Part shown: in pieces, positions 1,241-12,580 of the stretch | How positions within the stretch are numbered: position 1 is the stretch's first letter | How the letters are laid out: each line of letters opens with the position of its first letter | Virus record (IMG/VR): IMGVR_UViG_2654587685_000021 | Length of the DNA stretch: 13,651 nucleotides | Reading direction: 5' to 3' (one strand) | Origin: a virus | Taxonomy: Duplodnaviria > Heunggongvirae > Uroviricota > Caudoviricetes | The notes under the pieces: model-generated | Told to the model about the DNA's origin: nothing | Database searches by the model: none | The model's input: the letters and a program-made list of their open reading frames with translations, nothing else | Translations under genes and position numbers: made by a program

Positions 1241-1614
1241 AAGACCATCGGGGTAAAACGGTTTATGACGTGGCATCAGGGGACTCGTTATTTATTTCTG
1301 AACTCGGTCCATTACCGGAAAATGTTACCTGGTTGTCGCCGTATGGAGAGTATCAGAAGTGGAACGGCACATCCTGGGTGAAAGATGCAGAAGCAGAAAA
1401 ACTGTTTCGGATAAGGGAGGCGGAAGAAACAAAAAACAGCCTGATGCAGGTAGCCAGCGAGCATATTGCGCCACTTCAGGATGCCGTAGATTTGGATATT
1501 GCAACGGAGGAAGAGGCATCGTTACTGGCTGCATGGAAGACATACCGGGTATTGTTGAATCGTGTTAATACAGCGGTAGCAGCGGATGTTGAGTGGCCAG
1601 TCGCCCCACAATAA
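1241..1614 (+). pseudogene. Tail fibre assembly protein (Tfa / P2 gpG-like), 3' fragment; the 5' part is displaced by the IS2 insertion
   Basis: The translation after the IS2 end (..[64 protein letters not shown]...[13 protein letters not shown]...) matches the C-terminal two thirds of E. coli prophage Tfa proteins as I recall them. The listed ORF start at 1204 is inside IS2 and is an artefact. Confidence 0.75.
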
Positions 1615-1657: not shown

Positions 1658-2215
1658 CTATTTATACAATACAACACCGCTCTTTTTAGTTATATATGTG
1701 CAGTTCGATGGTATATCTTTATTTATAAAAGACATTGCACCTATTTTTACATTATCCCCAATTTTACGTGATAATCCAATGATGCAACAATTAGCTCCGA
1801 TATCAACGTTACTACCAATTTTTACTCTTGAACCAGGCATGTCACCATCTATCTGTCCAATGGTAGTATTCTGTCGTAACACCAGATTTTCACCAGCATC
1901 AACAGCAAAATGAACAACAATTCCAGCATGATGGGGAATTGTTAACCCTTTTCCAATATTTGCGCCCAATCCAATTTCACAACCAAATTTGTTAATTATT
2001 TTACTGTTTAACTTTTTGGCTGCTTTCTTATGTAATTTATTACCATTAATATACATTTCGTTAGCCAACCGCCACCAGAAAAGGAAATTCCGGTTACGCT
2101 GTTTTTTCTCTCTTAAAAGCCTCCAGATATCCATACGTTTCCGCCGAATTACTTCATATTTCCAGAAGTTTTTTAAATTAGTAGAGTCCCCAAATAAAAC
2201 AAAGTGAATTGCCAT
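1658..2215 (-). CDS. Hexapeptide-repeat acyltransferase, CysE/WcaB-like (serine or polysaccharide O-acetyltransferase family); AT-rich cargo gene
   Basis: The translation has the ...WWRLANEMYINGNKLHKKAAKKL... helix followed by a hexapeptide-repeat core (GCEIGLGANIGKGLTIPHHAGIVVHFAVDAGENLVLRQNTTIGQ...VKIGSNVDIGANCCIIG) like CysE and WcaB. The start is uncertain: ATG at 2215 or GTG at 2263 (the ORF-track start), neither with a good Shine-Dalgarno. The region is visibly AT-rich compared with the flanking tail genes. Confidence 0.65.
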   Translation of the reverse strand: MAIHFVLFGDSTNLKNFWKYEVIRRKRMDIWRLLREKKQRNRNFLFWWRLANEMYINGNKLHKKAAKKLNSKIINKFGCEIGLGANIGKGLTIPHHAGIVVHFAVDAGENLVLRQNTTIGQIDGDMPGSRVKIGSNVDIGANCCIIGLSRKIGDNVKIGAMSFINKDIPSNCTYITKKSGVVLYK

Positions 2216-2386
2216 TAAGTAAGACAGCACGATAATCTCCTTAATTATTATTTCAGACCACACATATTATAAGGTTAAGAGATTATAAAATCCTGTTGTT
2301 TGTTATTCAAAAACAATTTTCTGAGAAGGACATACAACAGCAAGTCGCCAGTCACCTTCATCAGGAAATTGGCGACATACGTTAAA

Positions 2387-8119: not shown

Positions 8120-9220
8120 ATGACCGATACCACCATGCAATTGCTCAGTCAGAGCACAGACCCCGTGAAAATGCCGGATTTTGATATTCTCGCGGAGGGG
8201 GAAACACTGTCCGGCGTGGCAGAGCGCCTGATGAGCCTGTCACTGACCGACAACCGGGGATTTGAAGCGGACCTGCTCACCATCACGCTGGATGATGCGG
8301 ATGGTCAGTTGCAGCTACCGCCACGGGGCGCGCGCCTGACGGTTCTCATTGGCTGGAAAGGAGAACCGCTGACAGAAAAAGGCACTTACATTGTTGATGA
8401 AATCGCTCACGAAGGACCGCCGGACAGGCTGACTGTTTCAGCCAGAAGCGCAGATTTTCGGGATGAATTTAACGTTAAACGTGAGGTGTCCTGGCATGAT
8501 GTGACCGTTGAGCGCGTGGTATCCGCCATCGCTCATCGGTACGGTCTGAAACCACAAATCAGCGAAATGCTGATGGATATTGAAATCGACCACGCCGACC
8601 AGACCGAAGAAAGCGACATGTCCTTCCTTACGCGCATGGCGGAAATGCTGGGCGCAATCACTACGGTAAAAAGCAGTAATCTGTTATTCATCATGCCAGG
8701 CGGTGGCGTGAACGCACAGGGCCAGCCGTTGCCATCGTTCGCCATCACGCGCAGCAGTGGCGATCGCCATCAGTTCCGCATTGCTGACCGCGAAGCGTAT
8801 ACGGGGGTACGTGCTTACTGGCTTGATCTTAATTACGGGAAAAAGAAAAAAGTCAGCGTGAAACGCCGCAAACCGAAAAAGGAGAAAAGCAGCAGCCGTG
8901 AAGGTGACTATATGGAAGGTGCGGAAGGCAACGTGTTTGTGTTACGCAAGACTTATCAGAACGAGCAGGCAGCAAGACGTGCAGCGGCGGCAAAGTGGCA
9001 GCAGCTACAACGCGGAGCCGCATCATTCTCCATCACGCTGGCGCGTGGACGCGCAGAACTCTATCCCGAAATGCATGGCACGGTGACAGGCTTCAAAAGT
9101 GACATCGATAATCAGGACTGGATTATTGCAAAAGCCGAGCACACCATTGATAACAGCGGCTTTACCACACAGCTTGAGCTTGAAGCAAAAATCCCGGAAT
9201 GGATAGCAGAAACAGAATGA
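8120..9220 (+). CDS. D: Phage tail protein D (P2 gpD / late control gene D family)
   Basis: The translation from MTDTTMQLL... has the gpD-type blocks (LTITLDDADGQLQLPPRGARLTVLIGWKG, SARSADFR, SFLTRMAE, a KKKKVSVKRRKPKKEK basic stretch, FSITLARGRAELYPE, SGFTTQLELE). GGGAGGG lies 6 nt before the ATG at 8120. The ORF-track start at 7988 is an upstream extension with no support. Confidence 0.85.
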   Translation: MTDTTMQLLSQSTDPVKMPDFDILAEGETLSGVAERLMSLSLTDNRGFEADLLTITLDDADGQLQLPPRGARLTVLIGWKGEPLTEKGTYIVDEIAHEGPPDRLTVSARSADFRDEFNVKREVSWHDVTVERVVSAIAHRYGLKPQISEMLMDIEIDHADQTEESDMSFLTRMAEMLGAITTVKSSNLLFIMPGGGVNAQGQPLPSFAITRSSGDRHQFRIADREAYTGVRAYWLDLNYGKKKKVSVKRRKPKKEKSSSREGDYMEGAEGNVFVLRKTYQNEQAARRAAAAKWQQLQRGAASFSITLARGRAELYPEMHGTVTGFKSDIDNQDWIIAKAEHTIDNSGFTTQLELEAKIPEWIAETE

Positions 9221-9619: not shown

Positions 9620-10759
9620 GTGGGAAACAATAAAGTGAAATTAGGAAGAAATGATAAGTGCTGGTGTAATTCAGGACTTAAGTATAAAAAGTGCCATCTT
9701 GGTCGAGATCGTGAAACTCCGGTATCCAAAGCCGAGGCACTGAAATTTTCAAAGTCTCTCTCGCAGAGAAAGGCATGTTATGCGCCAGCATCCATGCACG
9801 AAGATTGTGATAAACGCATCGTTCAGGCGCATACGATATCTAAGAGCAGTAGCCTTAAGGCGATCGCCGACTCCAGCAATCACGTCATGGGGGTGATAAT
9901 GAACTTAGCAAGCCTGATGAGAAACAACGGAAAATGGCTTCCCGAGAAGATCGGTATCAATCAGGCATCCACTTTTACAGGATTTTGTGCAGTTCATGAC
10001 AGAATCTTATTTTCATGCCTAGAGAACGAAAAATTTACAGGCACGGACGAGCAGTGCTTTGCCTTAATGTTTCGTTCATTGTCTAAAGAAATTTATGCCA
10101 AAGAAGGGGGAGTGCTATCTTCTGATTTTGCTAAAAATGCCGATAAAGGAAAGCTACAAGTTGAACAGTATTATATTCAGAAATTAATCGACCAGCACCA
10201 AAGTGGCTTAAATGCAGCAATAATTGAATTAAATAATCTTAAAACTAGCCTCGACCGCATCCTACTTAGCAGGCAATTTTCAGAAATTGAAAGTGTTATC
10301 TTCACTTTTGCAGAGCCTTTACCAATTGTAGTTTCGTCAATTCTTTCACCGGAGAGGGATTTCGATGGGACCAAAATTCAGGATTTGAGCGATCTTACAG
10401 TGTCGGCGGAACAAGTATGTTTCAATGCTTTTTCCTGCGGAGGTAAGGGATATGTTGTGTTCAGTTGGCTGAGAACTTCAACAATTATCAGACGTTTTAT
10501 ACGGACACTAATTAAGATCCCAGCTAACAGGATGTTCAATACCCTTCTGTATTTTTTCTTCACAAAGGCCGAAAATACATATTCATCCCCTGAGTGGTGG
10601 GACAGGCTCAGTGATAAACAGCGAGAGAATATCGGCAACATGATTATGTCAGGGGTTGAATTTTTTGGCATACCTACATCACAGGTTGATCATTCCGTTG
10701 ATTATAACGCCGCTGCACTTGAAGAGATAACATGCAGCAACAACGAAATTTGCAGCTGA
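9620..10759 (+). CDS. Hypothetical 379-aa protein with an N-terminal SEC-C-type zinc-binding motif; AT-rich cargo gene between D and ogr (candidate anti-phage or accessory function)
   Basis: Residues 14-26, CWCNSGLKYKKCH, fit the SecA C-terminal SEC-C consensus (CxCxSGxKYKxC[H/C]). The rest has no domain I can name. The start is GTG at 9620; the frame opens at 9608 after TAG, and the first in-frame ATG would delete the motif. No clear Shine-Dalgarno. AT-rich relative to the tail genes. Confidence 0.7.
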   Translation: MGNNKVKLGRNDKCWCNSGLKYKKCHLGRDRETPVSKAEALKFSKSLSQRKACYAPASMHEDCDKRIVQAHTISKSSSLKAIADSSNHVMGVIMNLASLMRNNGKWLPEKIGINQASTFTGFCAVHDRILFSCLENEKFTGTDEQCFALMFRSLSKEIYAKEGGVLSSDFAKNADKGKLQVEQYYIQKLIDQHQSGLNAAIIELNNLKTSLDRILLSRQFSEIESVIFTFAEPLPIVVSSILSPERDFDGTKIQDLSDLTVSAEQVCFNAFSCGGKGYVVFSWLRTSTIIRRFIRTLIKIPANRMFNTLLYFFFTKAENTYSSPEWWDRLSDKQRENIGNMIMSGVEFFGIPTSQVDHSVDYNAAALEEITCSNNEICS

Positions 10760-11048: not shown

Positions 11049-11309
11049 ATGTTCCGTTGTCCGCTTTGTGGCGCATCTGCCCGAATCCGCACCAGTCGTC
11101 CGGAAAACGATTCAAACACTGTGCGGCAAAAGTATTACCAGTGTAACAACCTGGAATGCGGCGTATGCTTCTCAACACTGGAAGCTTTCCATAAATTCAC
11201 ATCAAAACACGCCTCCGGCGTTCACTCTTCGGAAGGTATCCCGTGGCATGAGCTGCCAGCTTCACACAGGGGAAACAATCAGATGAGTTTGCCTTTACCT
11301 CAGAATTAA
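11049..11309 (+). CDS. ogr: Ogr/Delta-family zinc-finger late transcription activator
   Basis: MFRCPLCGASARIRTSR....YYQCNNLECGVCF has the CxxC-(22)-CxxxxC arrangement and the N-terminal consensus I recall for P2 Ogr (MFHCPLC..A.ARTSR...YHQCQN..C). AGGGAGG lies 5 nt before the ATG. It sits at the prophage end as in P2. Confidence 0.85.
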   Translation: MFRCPLCGASARIRTSRPENDSNTVRQKYYQCNNLECGVCFSTLEAFHKFTSKHASGVHSSEGIPWHELPASHRGNNQMSLPLPQN

Positions 11310-11499
11310 CAGGCAGAATTGCCGGAGTAACAAAAAAACGATAGATTACCCGCGGGTGCCTTTCGGCTGATGGTCGGAGGAATACCCGAAGGCCGGATGT
11401 GGAAAGGCCCCGGAAAACATTTCTGTTTAACCGAGGCCCTAACATATCTACCTTAAGCAAGTGATAGGTTAGCGCCTCTCCAACAAAGGAGCAAGCGCT

Positions 11500-11640
11500 A
11501 TGTCGCAAAAATCGCTTACAGCCATCACGTTCTGCGTGACGGTAATCCTCATCATCTGGATGCTACACGGTTCGCTGTGTGAAATACGGATGAGCTTCTG
11601 GGGAGCGGAGTTTGCGGCGTTCTTACAGTGTAAGCAGTAA
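11500..11640 (+). CDS. Hok/Gef-family type I toxin (46 aa), absent from the ORF track
   Basis: ATG 11500 to TAA 11638-11640 encodes MSQKSLTAITFCVTVILIIWMLHGSLCEIRMSFWGAEFAAFLQCKQ: one N-terminal transmembrane helix followed by the Hok-family SLCE(I/L) motif and AAF(L/M). AAAGGA lies upstream; an in-frame TAG at 11470-11472 closes the frame. Confidence 0.7.
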   Translation: MSQKSLTAITFCVTVILIIWMLHGSLCEIRMSFWGAEFAAFLQCKQ

Positions 11641-11728
11641 GGAAACCGCGACGGGGGAGCAATCCCCCGTCAATCGGTTGCTAAGGTTGGCTGAAGTGGC
11701 ACCCTATCTCACAGACATGAACAACAAA

Positions 11729-11760
11729 CCCGCAGCGTAAGAACTGCGGGTTTTCTTTTT
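11729..11760 (+). terminator. Rho-independent terminator downstream of the hok-like gene
   Basis: CCCGCAG (11729-11735), an 8-nt loop, CTGCGGG (11744-11750), then TTTTCTTTTT. It is preceded by a second GC hairpin, GACGGGGGA-GCAA-TCCCCCGTC, which could be the 3' fold-back element of a hok-type mRNA. Confidence 0.6.
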
Positions 11761-11828
11761 GGAACAATCACTAGCTAGTGTACCGTTAACGGCACATAAT
11801 GCTCGCACAACAAACCTGTTAAAAGAGA

Positions 11829-12110
11829 TTACTCAGCATTCTCCTGCTTCCATTGCCGGATCATTTCATCGGTAACATCACCCTCATAACATACCACGTC
11901 ATACCCTCCATTACGGCTATATGCACTGCGTCCACCACATCTACTACCATTCCTTGCATGATTATAAGGACACGCACAATTGCCTGGATAAGATTCAATG
12001 GATTCTTTAATTATTTCTTTTTTGATCTGAGCATCAGACTTTCCTGTTGCTGCATATCCACTAAAAGATACTAAACAAAGGCAGATTGCCATTAATAAAC
12101 CACATCGCAT
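11829..12110 (-). CDS. Small secreted Cys-rich hypothetical protein (about 93 aa with signal peptide)
   Basis: The ORF is open to 12224, but the signal-peptide-like start MRCGLLMAICLCLVSFSGYAA|TGK begins at the ATG at 12110. The mature part has 6 Cys (..YPGNCACPYNHARNGSRCGGRSAY..VVCYEGD..). AT-rich. No family assignment from memory. Confidence 0.5.
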   Translation of the reverse strand: MRCGLLMAICLCLVSFSGYAATGKSDAQIKKEIIKESIESYPGNCACPYNHARNGSRCGGRSAYSRNGGYDVVCYEGDVTDEMIRQWKQENAE

Positions 12111-12412
12111 ACCGATACACTCTATTACTAACCAATCATAGCCCACATCATAAAATCGAGATGAGGAGTACAATACCTTTAACAAGAAGGTGTCATAACG
12201 ATAATATGTCGTGCAATTCATCAAAAAAAAGATCTATATCAAAGAGATAGAACTCTTATCAGCGCTTCAGACATCGGCATTCGAGGCAGCAGAAAAACAG
12301 TAAATCTGACGAATTTGCCTTTTCCCAAGATGTTGTCAGATTAAAAAGATAGATTAGCGCAGGTACCTGTTGGTGGATTGCAGGAGGAAAAATGAAGTCG
12401 AGTGAAAAAATC

Positions 12413-12474
12413 CCAGAAAAATTTTTGTTTAACAGAGGTCCTGGTTCACTATGCGAAATACGGAGGAGCTGCAG
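12413..12474 (+). pseudogene. hok-locus remnant: degenerate second copy with an internal deletion of about 127 bp
   Basis: 12413-12442 matches 11410-11440 (about 26 of 30) and 12443-12474 matches 11568-11600 inside hok (about 26 of 32), with the intervening hok start and transmembrane coding part missing. A 34-aa ORF at 12392-12496 with an AGGAGG upstream retains the GSLCEIR motif but has no transmembrane helix. Confidence 0.5.
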
Positions 12475-12580
12475 AAGAATTCTGCTTCATCCTTAGAGTT
12501 TAAACAGCACGTGCACTACCATTGTTTCTGCATATCGCCACACCATCGCCACTCTACCGCCATTGCACAAAATACAAATA

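What the first reader, a model, noticed from the sequence alone, without database searches (positions are those of the whole stretch)
11310..11760. Unlisted hok-family type I toxin locus immediately downstream of ogr
A 46-codon ORF with a transmembrane helix plus the SLCEIR motif typical of Hok, Gef and PndA, a ribosome-binding site, a 3' GC hairpin and an intrinsic terminator lies in the 190-bp gap after ogr. Hok-type loci are normally regulated by a cis-antisense RNA (Sok) and an overlapping mok frame. I could not find a long mok-like overlapping frame, so translation control may differ. A toxin module at the prophage terminus could act in prophage maintenance or abortive infection.
Basis: partly seen in the sequence, partly recalled or inferred. 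Interest (0 to 1): 0.55.

Follow-up and report, generated by a model that had tools for sequence, protein, structure and literature searches.

The report
Known Hok toxin locus in prophage
The gap after the phage gene ogr holds a real hok/sok-type toxin–antitoxin locus, but public databases already annotate and catalogue it, so the finding is correct and mostly ordinary; the only open point is that this subfamily lacks the usual 'mok' helper reading frame.

Summary
ORF 11500-11640 (+) encodes a 46-aa peptide that passes Pfam's Hok/Gef threshold (30.1 bits against 22) and keeps every conserved Hok residue.

The surrounding sequence has most of the hok mRNA anatomy:
- a conserved promoter (TTGCCG-17-TAGATT);
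- a 5' end at about 11354 (GGGUGCC) complementary to a 3' GGCACCC (tac/fbi);
- a Sok-target hairpin;
- an antisense promoter (TTGCTC-17-TAACCT) with the same -10 hexamer as the one upstream of annotated sokW;
- a 3' protective hairpin and a terminator.

The locus is not new. RefSeq annotates the gene (WP_000078920.1). Similar DNA occurs in about 1,755 of 5,426 complete E. coli genomes and in P88-like phages. A 2025-26 Hok catalogue lists this exact peptide, and it reports that a one-residue variant was toxic.

None of 33 leader variants has a start codon at the canonical mok position, and all 33 carry an in-frame TAG 28-30 nt upstream of the hok ATG. Upstream ORFs vary from 1 to 79 codons.

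I infer that Hok translation is gated directly by an RNA switch plus a Sok-like antisense RNA. This inference is untested.

Interest is low. The mok-less control is a modest open question.

The parts
11319..11347 (+). Predicted hok promoter: -35 TTGCCG (11319-24), 17-nt spacer, -10 TAGATT (11342-47)
   Evidence: Read. ATTGC and TA.A.T are conserved in 8 loci whose sequence further upstream is unrelated. It scores 8 of 12 against consensus, below the 9 of 12 the scan tool requires, so one search did not list it. Function is inferred.
11354..11757 (+). Predicted full-length hok mRNA (about 404 nt)
   Evidence: The Rfam sok/hok-leader model aligns from 11354. The -10 hexamer lies 7 nt upstream. 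The terminator ends the transcript. MFE -175 kcal/mol, z -8.1. The ends were not mapped experimentally.
11354..11368 (+). tac-like 5' element (GGGUGCCUUUCGGCU)
   Evidence: It pairs with 11689-11704 in the MFE fold. This helix is 94.6% paired across 26 sequences, and the changes on the 3' arm mostly keep pairing. Alternatively it pairs with 11399-11411 (tac/ucb), 99.7% paired with one compensatory change.
11397..11456 (+). Non-conserved upstream ORF (ATG 11397, stop TAA 11454-56); an overlapping GTG ORF runs 11399-11464
   Evidence: The ATG and GTG are invariant, but the ORFs vary from 1 to 79 codons among 33 leader variants. The AUG is paired (unpaired probability 0.001-0.009) and lies in the 3' arm of the tac stem. 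This is probably not a functional mok.
11402..11411 (+). ucb-like box (GAAAGGCCCC)
   Evidence: It pairs either with tac (open form) or with CCGAGGCC at 11431-38 (closed form).
11406..11438 (+). Sok-target-like hairpin (GGCCCCGG...CCGAGGCC) that includes the relic mok SD, GAGG, at 11433-36
   Evidence: -14.2 kcal/mol. It aligns to the sokT hairpin of the Rfam model. The loop occurs as alternative cassettes among relatives.
11446..11448 (+). ATC near the position where canonical loci have the mok ATG
   Evidence: The R1-like locus, hokW and hokC have ATG 8 nt after GAGG. In the window the ATC lies 9 nt after GAGG. None of 33 subfamily leaders has ATG, GTG or TTG 3-12 nt after GAGG.
11403..11459 (-). 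Predicted Sok-like antisense RNA (about 57 nt; 3' end uncertain)
   Evidence: The start is inferred from the promoter and the spacing seen upstream of the annotated sokW RNA. It has a 5' tail and a hairpin followed by GGGGCCUUU, like sokW's GGGGCUUUU. No terminator-like site was found on the minus strand here. No expression data.
11466..11494 (-). Predicted antisense (sok) promoter: -35 TTGCTC (11494-11489), 17 nt, -10 TAACCT (11471-11466)
   Evidence: The sequence upstream of annotated sokW in 933W is TTGCCT-17-TAACCT; the R1-like locus has TTGCGC-17-TATCCT. Both hexamers are kept in 33 of 33 leaders.
11470..11472 (+). Invariant TAG in frame with hok; it blocks any N-terminal (mok-type) extension
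   Evidence: Present in 33 of 33 leaders. It overlaps the antisense -10 hexamer.
11471..11499 (+). Hairpin that sequesters the hok SD (AGCGCCUCUCC / GGAGCAAGCGCU); its 5' arm is dcb-like
   Evidence: -12.1 kcal/mol. GGAG unpaired probability is 0.002-0.003. 96.2% paired across 26 sequences, with one-sided changes kept as G-U. The 5' arm can instead pair with GAGGC..CUAAC at 11433-43.
11486..11491 (+). hok Shine-Dalgarno sequence AAGGAG
   Evidence: 8 nt before the ATG.
11500..11640 (+). hok CDS, 46 aa
   Evidence: Pfam PF01848, 30.1 bits above the gathering score of 22. RefSeq WP_000078920.1. dN/dS 0.06-0.52. The exact peptide is in the Hok catalogue.
11650..11671 (+). 3' GC-rich hairpin; probably the protective 3' end of the processed (active) mRNA
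   Evidence: 100% paired, with 4 pairs showing compensatory changes. The role is inferred by analogy with R1 (PMC9841398).
11689..11704 (+). fbi-like 3' element (GGCUGAAGUGGCACCC)
   Evidence: Complementary to the mRNA 5' end. GGCACCC is nearly invariant in 49 distinct mRNAs. Homology with the Stx-phage copy ends just after it.
11726..11763 (+). Intrinsic terminator (stem 11726-11753 plus a T run)
   Evidence: Homology with phage P88 ends at about 11763.

Best explanation
Window 11319-11763 is a hok/sok-type type I toxin-antitoxin locus. It belongs to the 46-aa Hok subfamily that the 2025-26 Hok catalogue calls cluster 72. It sits as an accessory gene between ogr and the right end of the phage-P88-homologous part of a P2-like prophage, next to the tRNA Leu/Cys/Gly cluster and pgsA of E. 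coli.

Shown here:
- The peptide is a Hok/Gef family member under purifying selection.
- The leader is homologous to canonical hok leaders.
- The mRNA 5' end is complementary to a 3' element.
- The hok ribosome-binding site is locked in a conserved hairpin.
- The minus strand has a sokW-like promoter.

Inferred by analogy with R1 hok/sok:
- The full-length mRNA is stable and closed by 5'-3' (tac/fbi) pairing.
- Slow 3' trimming back to the 11650-71 hairpin removes fbi.
- The 5' end can then pair with GAAAGGCCCC (ucb), and GAGGCCCUAAC can pair with GGUUAGCGCCUC (dcb).
- A short-lived Sok-like antisense RNA (about 11459 to 11403) binds the leader and causes RNase III decay. When Sok is no longer made, Hok is translated, inserts in the inner membrane and depolarises the cell.

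Specific to this subfamily, and my own inference (about 50% likely): no functional mok exists. The dcb swap itself frees the hok SD, and Sok binding returns dcb to the SD. Translation would then be gated directly by RNA structure rather than by coupling to an upstream reading frame.

The biological role is not determined. Candidates are prophage retention, exclusion of other phages, and help with lysis.
For: Identity:
- Pfam HOK_GEF is above threshold.
- All seven residues that the catalogue finds conserved in more than 80% of Hok peptides are present: M1, C12, T14, L26, C27, E28, E37.
- RefSeq and phage records annotate the gene.
- The exact peptide is #1628 in the catalogue. Cluster-72 representatives 72_1621 (V15A) and 72_1589 were tested and are not among the three non-toxic sequences.

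Leader homology: RF01794 aligns full-length, E 2.9e-9. Canonical controls are (R1-like locus; hokW).

Structure:
- z = -8.1 and 15-bp 5'-3' pairing.
- The closed structure is 94.5% paired against about 41% in slid controls. It has 16 pairs with changes on both sides; 0 of 500 shuffles reach this.
- The tac/ucb helix is 99.7% paired with one compensatory event.
- The GAGGC/GCCUC plus CUAAC/GGUUAG helix is kept in at least 25 of 26 sequences, and all ten 5'-arm substitutions give G-U pairs.

Switch energetics: the open form costs +11.7 kcal/mol in the full-length RNA but only +2.8 after 3' truncation. The hok GGAG unpaired probability rises from 0.002-0.003 to 0.05-0.09. A Sok-bound mimic returns it to 0.002.

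Antisense promoter: same -10 hexamer and spacer as upstream of annotated sokW, kept in 33 of 33 leaders.

No mok: none of 33 leaders has a start codon at the canonical site, and all 33 have the in-frame TAG. Upstream ORF length runs from 1 to 79 codons, including AUG-UGA in L008 together with a compensatory tac/ucb change.

Selection on hok: dN/dS 0.06-0.52, and 91 of 92 ORFs are intact; I did not inspect the one exception.
Against: - No expression data of any kind are available here. The Sok-like RNA, its ends and the mRNA processing are all predicted.
- The consensus promoter scan found no promoter on either strand, and found no minus-strand terminator between 11340 and 11460. The Sok-like RNA would end in only three U's.
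- The leader scores below Rfam's gathering threshold, and the peptide scores below both NCBIfam Hok cut-offs.
- In R1, translation of mok up to the hok SD is mandatory (PMC9841398), so a mok-less hok has no precedent that I found.
- In the unconstrained fold of the truncated RNA the hok SD stays closed. Even in the forced open state it is only 5-9% unpaired.
- In 12 of 33 leader variants an ORF starting at the conserved ATG or GTG does reach or cross the hok start, so a mok-like frame cannot be excluded for the subfamily as a whole.
Confidence: 0.75

Rival explanations
1. The conserved AUG 11397 / GUG 11399, preceded by GAAGG, starts a short upstream ORF that replaces mok. Ribosomes translate through the Sok target, terminate at 11454-56 or 11462-64, loosen the base of the SD hairpin and re-initiate at hok. 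Sok would act by blocking this upstream ORF.
For: The ATG and GTG are invariant in 26 aligned sequences. In 12 of 33 leader variants one of the two frames reaches at least -16 relative to the hok ATG. In 9 more it stops at the TAG at the base of the SD hairpin. In R1 only the act of translating mok matters, not its product.
Against: - ORF length and frame are not conserved: 1-79 codons, with 1-2-nt indels inside the ORF.
- L008 has AUG immediately followed by UGA, and the change that creates this stop is compensated in the tac/ucb helix. This points to RNA pairing as the selected feature.
- The AUG is paired in both modelled states (0.001 and 0.009 unpaired).
- The equivalent segment of canonical leaders reads GAUAGAGAAAAGCCCC with no AUG.
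- In the window the stops lie 36-46 nt upstream of the hok ATG.
- The predicted Sok-like RNA ends at about 11403 and would not cover the AUG.
Confidence: 0.2
2. This allele is a translationally silent, decaying hok locus. With its mok-equivalent frame interrupted by TAA at 11454-56, Hok cannot be made from the native transcript, as with premature mok stops in R1.
For: In R1, stop codons in mok upstream of hok abolish Hok translation. In the window the -1 frame would be open from 11370 to 83 nt into hok but for the single TAA. Some relatives have that frame intact, for example L005 with 61 codons.
Against: - The interrupted leader types are the commonest among the 92 loci sampled, and they carry intact 46-aa hok ORFs.
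- hok is under purifying selection between lineages with and without the long frame; window against L005 gives dN/dS 0.06.
- The promoter, tac/fbi, SD hairpin and antisense promoter are all conserved. This is not expected of a dead locus.
- The sample is biased towards close relatives.
Confidence: 0.1
3. The ORF is a chance open frame in an ogr 3' untranslated region or attachment-site region, and the resemblance to Hok is superficial.
For: The ORF is short. It falls below the NCBIfam cut-offs, and Rfam finds nothing at gathering threshold.
Against: Pfam is above threshold. The ORF is conserved at 46 aa in five unrelated genomic contexts. dN/dS is below 1. The leader shows homology to hok leaders. 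Near-identical peptides are toxic.
Confidence: 0.01

Closest known systems
hok/mok/sok of plasmid R1 (parB); an R1-like copy was read here as L004
   Same: - A small single-helix toxin with the C-x-T and L-C-E motifs.
- An mRNA of about 400 nt whose 5' end pairs with a 3' element (R1: GGCGCUU/AAGCGCC; here: GGGUGCC/GGCACCC).
- A Sok-target hairpin flanked by GCCCCG...CGAGGC.
- An antisense promoter of the TTGC..-17-TA.CCT type placed over the dcb box.
- A GC hairpin after the stop codon.
   Different: - Hok is only 33% identical and 6 residues shorter.
- The leader scores 46.7 bits against 87 bits on the Rfam model.
- R1 has a 70-codon mok starting 8 nt after GAGG, whose translation is required. 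Here that start codon is absent and an invariant TAG closes the hok frame.
- The antisense -35 lies 8 nt closer to the hok ATG.
hokW-mokW-sokW of Stx2 phages 933W and Sp5 (Takada et al. 2021, PMC8621323)
   Same: It is a prophage-borne hok/sok locus. The -10 hexamer upstream of the annotated antisense RNA is identical (TAACCT), with a 17-nt spacer. The antisense RNA ends in GGGGC(C)UUU. [quoted passage not shown]
   Different: It is a separate locus and subfamily. HokW is 51 aa and 33% identical, with an annotated in-frame 70-aa mokW. 933W carries both hokW and an unannotated copy of the window's subfamily after lom. The name 'MokW-like' given to the P88 gene is therefore misleading.
Hok 'cluster 72' in Escalera-Maurer et al., bioRxiv 10.1101/2025.08.07.668861
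   Same: The window's peptide is listed exactly, as unique sequence 1628. Cluster representatives 72_1621 (one substitution, V15A) and 72_1589 (the Stx-phage type) were cloned, and they are not among the three non-toxic constructs. That study also reports that hok is enriched in prophages.
   Different: That study deliberately left mok, Sok and the mRNA elements unanalysed. The anatomy and the absence of mok described here are not in it.
HokA of E. coli K-12 (NCBIfam NF007290)
   Same: It is the best-scoring named Hok model, E 6e-9.
   Different: It scores 35.8 bits against a cut-off of 89, so the window's peptide is not a HokA orthologue.

Membership tests
Hok/Gef protein family (Pfam PF01848) | The sequence matches the family profile above the curated threshold | tested here: met
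   30.1 bits against a gathering score of 22, E 3.7e-7; residues 7-44 align to profile positions 5-42 of 42.
Hok/Gef protein family (Pfam PF01848) | A peptide of about 50 aa with one N-terminal hydrophobic helix and the conserved residues M1, C16, T18, L30, C31, E32, E41 (catalogue logo numbering) | tested here: met
   46 aa. M1, C12, T14, L26, C27, E28 and E37 are at matching spacing. C44 corresponds to logo position 48, which is C or Y.
Hok/Gef protein family (Pfam PF01848) | Toxic to E. coli on induction | not testable with these tools
   From the literature only: the V15A variant 72_1621 and 72_1589 were tested, and the paper names three other sequences as the only non-toxic ones. The exact window peptide was not among the tested constructs listed.
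NCBIfam HokA equivalog / Hok family toxin subfamily | Score above the curated cut-off | tested here: not met
   HokA 35.8 bits against 89. Hok family 23.6 bits against 73. The peptide is therefore not filed as HokA or as that subfamily.
hok/mok/sok type I toxin-antitoxin locus (R1 paradigm) | The hok mRNA leader is homologous to known hok leaders (Rfam RF01794, which models the sense-strand leader) | tested here: inconclusive
   A full-length alignment (model positions 1-157) at 46.7 bits, E 2.9e-9, but below the gathering score of 59. Relatives score 42-51 bits; canonical loci score 87 and 113 bits.
hok/mok/sok type I toxin-antitoxin locus (R1 paradigm) | Long-range pairing of the mRNA 5' end (tac) with a 3' element (fbi) | tested here: met
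   A 15-bp helix, 11354-68 with 11689-11704, appears in the MFE fold. It is 94.6% paired across 26 sequences. This is computational only.
hok/mok/sok type I toxin-antitoxin locus (R1 paradigm) | Alternative tac/ucb and SD-region/dcb helices (the open form) | tested here: met
   RNAalifold predicts both helices. The tac/ucb helix is 99.7% paired with one compensatory change. The cost of the open form falls from 11.7 to 2.8 kcal/mol on 3' truncation. This is computational only.
hok/mok/sok type I toxin-antitoxin locus (R1 paradigm) | A cis-encoded antisense Sok RNA with its own promoter, opposite the leader | tested here: inconclusive
   The promoter TTGCTC-17-TAACCT matches the sequence upstream of annotated sokW and is invariant in 33 of 33 leaders. 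It falls below the consensus-scan threshold, no terminator was found, and transcription cannot be tested here.
hok/mok/sok type I toxin-antitoxin locus (R1 paradigm) | A mok reading frame that starts inside the Sok target, a few nt after GAGG, and runs at least to the hok SD | tested here: not met
   None of 33 leaders has ATG, GTG or TTG 3-12 nt after GAGG, and all 33 have an in-frame TAG at -30 to -28. In the window the other upstream ORFs stop at 11454-56 and 11462-64. The locus is therefore described as hok/sok-type, not as a full three-gene hok/mok/sok member.

The most novel reading that the evidence does not exclude
The whole 46-aa Hok subfamily ('cluster 72'), which occurs in about a third of complete E. 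coli genomes in P2-like and lambdoid prophages and in an island, may have dispensed with mok. Hok synthesis would be gated directly by an RNA switch: the dcb box alternates between clamping the hok ribosome-binding site and pairing with the relic mok SD region. The Sok-like RNA would work by pushing dcb back onto the ribosome-binding site, in addition to triggering decay. This would be a mok-independent version of the textbook hok/sok circuit.
Probability: 0.35. Interest if true: 0.4.

Novelty: already known. Interest (0 to 1): 0.2.

Why it matters
As a gene call this finding adds nothing new. The toxin is annotated in RefSeq, is widespread in E. coli, and appears in a recent Hok catalogue whose authors found a near-identical peptide toxic.

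It is a clean example of a type I toxin carried as cargo at the very end of P2-like phage genomes. This fits the reported enrichment of hok in prophages.

The one point with research value is regulatory. In R1 hok/sok, translation of hok depends on translation of mok. This abundant subfamily has lost the mok start codon while keeping every RNA element. If it is active, it shows that the RNA switch and the antisense RNA can be sufficient on their own. That can be tested directly with a few reporter fusions.

Tried and rejected
- Rfam at gathering thresholds found no hok/sok family in the window. Only the permissive search showed the sub-threshold leader match.
- The consensus promoter scan found nothing on either strand in 11200-11900. 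The promoters are therefore argued from conservation and from comparison with R1 and sokW.
- An in-frame mok (as in mokW and mokC) is rejected because of the invariant TAG at 11470-72.
- A canonical-position mok is rejected because no start codon follows GAGG in any of 33 leaders.
- AUG 11397 as a mok start was considered and judged unlikely, because its frame and length are not conserved and it is buried in the tac stem.
- Plain MFE and ensemble folding of a 3'-truncated mRNA did not open the hok SD. The same test on an R1-like locus also failed to reproduce the experimentally known opening of the mok SD. The test is therefore uninformative, and I used constrained folds instead. A first constrained fold was one base out of register and is discarded (this also affects helix 5).
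- The scan of species-representative genomes gave only 6 loci. Three are from unlikely hosts (a Planococcaceae MAG, Vagococcus, Xanthomonas pisi) and are probably contamination. Diversity was taken from E. coli genomes and IMG/VR instead.
- Literature searches for hok in P2-like phages found nothing specific.
- 'MokW-like' as a name for this gene is rejected. The true hokW/mokW/sokW is a different locus in 933W.
Full report
**What is there**

The window is an E. coli chromosomal segment that is 100% identical to several RefSeq genomes. RefSeq annotates the following across it:
- P2-type tail genes, gpD (8120-9220) and a YecA-family gene (9620-10759);
- ogr (11049-11309);
- a 'Hok/Gef family protein' at 11500-11640 (WP_000078920.1);
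- a small hypothetical gene at 11829-12110 (-);
- tRNA-Leu, tRNA-Cys and tRNA-Gly, then pgsA.

**Identity of the peptide**

The 46-aa product passes Pfam HOK_GEF at 30.1 bits against a gathering score of 22. It carries all seven residues that a recent survey found conserved in more than 80% of Hok peptides. It falls below the NCBIfam cut-offs for HokA and for the Hok family toxin subfamily. This explains the generic RefSeq name.

Relatives keep a 46-aa frame (47 aa in one E. albertii copy). I saw them in five unrelated settings:
- after ogr in P2-like prophages at two different integration sites;
- after lom in Stx phages;
- between gpJ and a tail-fibre gene in a lambdoid prophage;
- beside an L31-type gene in an island.

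dN/dS is 0.06-0.52, so the peptide is under purifying selection.

**How well known it is**

DNA similar to 11310-11780 occurs in 1,755 of 5,426 complete E. coli genomes, nearly always annotated as Hok/Gef. It also occurs in P88-like Peduoviridae phages, where it is misnamed 'MokW-like host killing'.

The bioRxiv survey 10.1101/2025.08.07.668861 lists this exact peptide as unique sequence 1628. The authors cloned two members of its cluster 72, one of which differs by V15A. They state that only three other constructs, out of 45, were non-toxic. They also report that hok is enriched in prophages.

**Anatomy of the RNA locus**

I aligned the window with divergent relatives. Conservation starts abruptly at ATTGCCG and ends just after GGCACCC.

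- **Promoter and 5' end.** TTGCCG (11319-24), a 17-nt spacer and TAGATT (11342-47) place the 5' end at about 11354 (GGGUGCC). The Rfam model RF01794 begins its alignment at the same base.
- **What the Rfam 'sok' model represents.** It matches the hok-sense strand from the mRNA 5' end to the hok AUG. It scores 87 bits on an R1-like locus and 113 bits on hokW, both on the hok strand. The window scores 46.7 bits and its relatives 42-51 bits, all under the gathering score of 59. That is why a standard Rfam run reports nothing.
- **Fold of the predicted transcript.** The 406-nt RNA folds at -175 kcal/mol (z = -8.1). Its first 15 nt pair with 11689-11704, which is the tac/fbi arrangement of R1.
- **Support across 26 distinct sequences.** This closed structure is 94.5% paired against about 41% when partners are slid. 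It has 16 pairs with changes on both sides, which 0 of 500 shuffles reach. The structure was derived from the window sequence, which inflates the paired fraction.
- **Alternative helices.** RNAalifold also recovers a tac/ucb helix (5' GCCUUUC.GC with GU.GAAAGGC) and a GAGGC..CUAAC / GGUUAG..GCCUC helix. These correspond to the open form of R1 as described in PMC9841398.

**Antisense RNA**

The minus strand reads TTGCTC (11494-89), 17 nt, TAACCT (11471-66). In phage 933W the sequence upstream of the annotated sokW RNA is TTGCCT-17-TAACCT, with the RNA starting 7 nt later. The R1-like locus has TTGCGC-17-TATCCT at the equivalent place. Both hexamers are kept in all 33 leader variants.

By analogy, a Sok-like RNA would start at 11459/58. 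It would have a free 5' tail and the hairpin GGCCUCGG...CCGGGGCC, and would end near 11403 in GGGGCCUUU; sokW ends in GGGGCUUUU. Its 3' end is uncertain. Only three U's follow the hairpin, and the terminator scan found nothing there. No expression evidence is available.

**The mok question**

In the R1-like locus, hokW and hokC, mok starts at an ATG 8 nt after GAGG. In R1, translation up to the hok SD is mandatory.

I extracted 92 loci of this subfamily, giving 33 distinct leaders.
- None has ATG, GTG or TTG 3-12 nt after GAGG; the window has ATC at 11446-48.
- All have TAG in the hok frame at -30 to -28, so an in-frame mok of the mokW type is impossible.
- An invariant ATG/GTG pair (11397 and 11399) after GAAGG opens ORFs of 1 to 79 codons.
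- One of those ORFs crosses the hok start in 12 leaders. It stops at the TAG in 9 leaders. It stops further upstream in the remaining 12, including the window, which belongs to the commonest leader types sampled.
- That ATG lies in the 3' arm of the tac stem, where canonical leaders read GAUAGAGAAAAGCCCC. It is predicted to be paired.
- In L008 it is followed directly by UGA, through a change that is compensated in the tac/ucb helix.

I conclude that the ATG is conserved for RNA pairing rather than for initiation, and that the subfamily lacks a functional mok. This remains an inference.

**Likely mechanism**

The hok SD is held in the hairpin AGCGCCUCUCC/GGAGCAAGCGCU (11471-99, -12.1 kcal/mol). 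It is 96% paired across relatives, with an unpaired probability of 0.002. The 5' arm of this hairpin is the dcb-like box, which can instead pair with GAGGCCCUAAC.

Constrained folding gives the following:
- The open form (tac/ucb plus GAGGC/dcb) costs 11.7 kcal/mol in the full-length RNA but only 2.8 kcal/mol once the 3' end is trimmed to the 11650-71 hairpin.
- It raises SD accessibility about 30-fold.
- Holding the Sok target single-stranded, as if it were bound, closes the SD again.

I therefore propose the R1 pathway with mok removed:
1. A stable, closed full-length mRNA is made.
2. Slow 3' trimming removes fbi.
3. The RNA switches to the open form, which exposes the hok SD directly.
4. 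Sok binding reverses the switch and triggers RNase III decay.
5. Hok is made when Sok transcription stops.

The steps after the sequence-level facts are inferred. Unconstrained folding does not show the switch, but it also fails on the R1-like control.

**Rivals**

- The short upstream ORF could couple to hok by termination and re-initiation.
- This allele could be silent. Conservation of every element, and purifying selection on hok in lineages with interrupted frames, argue against that.
- A chance ORF is excluded.

**Function**

This is not determined. The locus ends at the boundary of homology with phage P88 (about 11763), so it is the last cargo gene before the phage attachment region. 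Published roles of hok/sok loci are plasmid maintenance and phage exclusion, and, for hokW-sokW, help with lysis and phage release after mitomycin C (PMC8621323). None of these was tested for this subfamily.

**Verdict**

The finding is real and correctly interpreted, but already known as a gene. The absence of mok across the subfamily is the only part I could not find described. It deserves modest interest.

Noticed in passing
L010 1512-1801 (NC_000924 about 45511-45800): Phage 933W carries a second hok locus of the window's 46-aa subfamily, between lom and ST933Wp67. Its peptide is MSQKSLITVTICMTVIFTIWMLHGSLCEFRLNLWGAEFAAFLQCKQ. The reference record does not annotate it; only hokW/mokW/sokW at 58460-58734 are annotated. 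Many Stx2a phage records likewise show no feature under the match.
   Followed up: partly
window 11765-12580: The roughly 815 bp between the end of P88 homology and the conserved chromosome occur in full in only 587 of 5,426 genomes. Core sequence resumes at about 12580, roughly 70 nt from tRNA-Leu. The segment holds a 93-aa Cys-rich hypothetical ORF (11829-12110, minus strand) with no Pfam or NCBIfam match. It may be a remnant of another integrated element.
   Followed up: partly
window 9620-10759: A 379-aa 'YecA family' protein with an N-terminal SEC-C motif (Pfam, 34.4 bits) lies between gpD and ogr. The related P2-like prophages L005 and L009 lack it; there ogr follows the gpD-family gene within about 40 nt. 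Its function is unknown.
   Followed up: partly
window 1379-1577: Rfam family IS009 (annotated as a gene/sRNA) matches at 192 bits, but the match lies wholly inside the annotated tail fibre assembly CDS (1036-1614). The 'RNA family' may simply be a conserved prophage coding sequence.
   Followed up: no
window 1658-2230 (-): A serine O-acetyltransferase-like gene (hexapeptide repeat) sits on the opposite strand between the tail fibre assembly gene and the tail genes. It is probably another cargo gene of the prophage, possibly involved in O-antigen or receptor modification.
   Followed up: no
alignment A4 columns 59-82 (window 11411-11432): The loop of the Sok-target hairpin occurs in at least two unrelated cassettes (GGAAAACAUUUCUGUUUAACC and GAGUCAACUUUAACGUUAACCC). 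These are combined with identical or nearly identical hok coding sequences, and the same cassette appears with divergent hok genes (L007). This suggests recombination or diversification of antisense specificity.
   Followed up: no
L011, L012, L015: Contigs labelled as a Planococcaceae MAG, Vagococcus sp. and Xanthomonas pisi carry this E. coli-type hok at 100%, 100% and 74% peptide identity. These assemblies are probably contaminated with enterobacterial or phage DNA.
   Followed up: no
L003 1367-1375: In the Stx-phage copy the start codon of the next gene (133 aa) overlaps the fbi box (AUGGCACCC), and no terminator hairpin follows. The 3' end of that hok mRNA must therefore form differently from the one in the window.
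   Followed up: no
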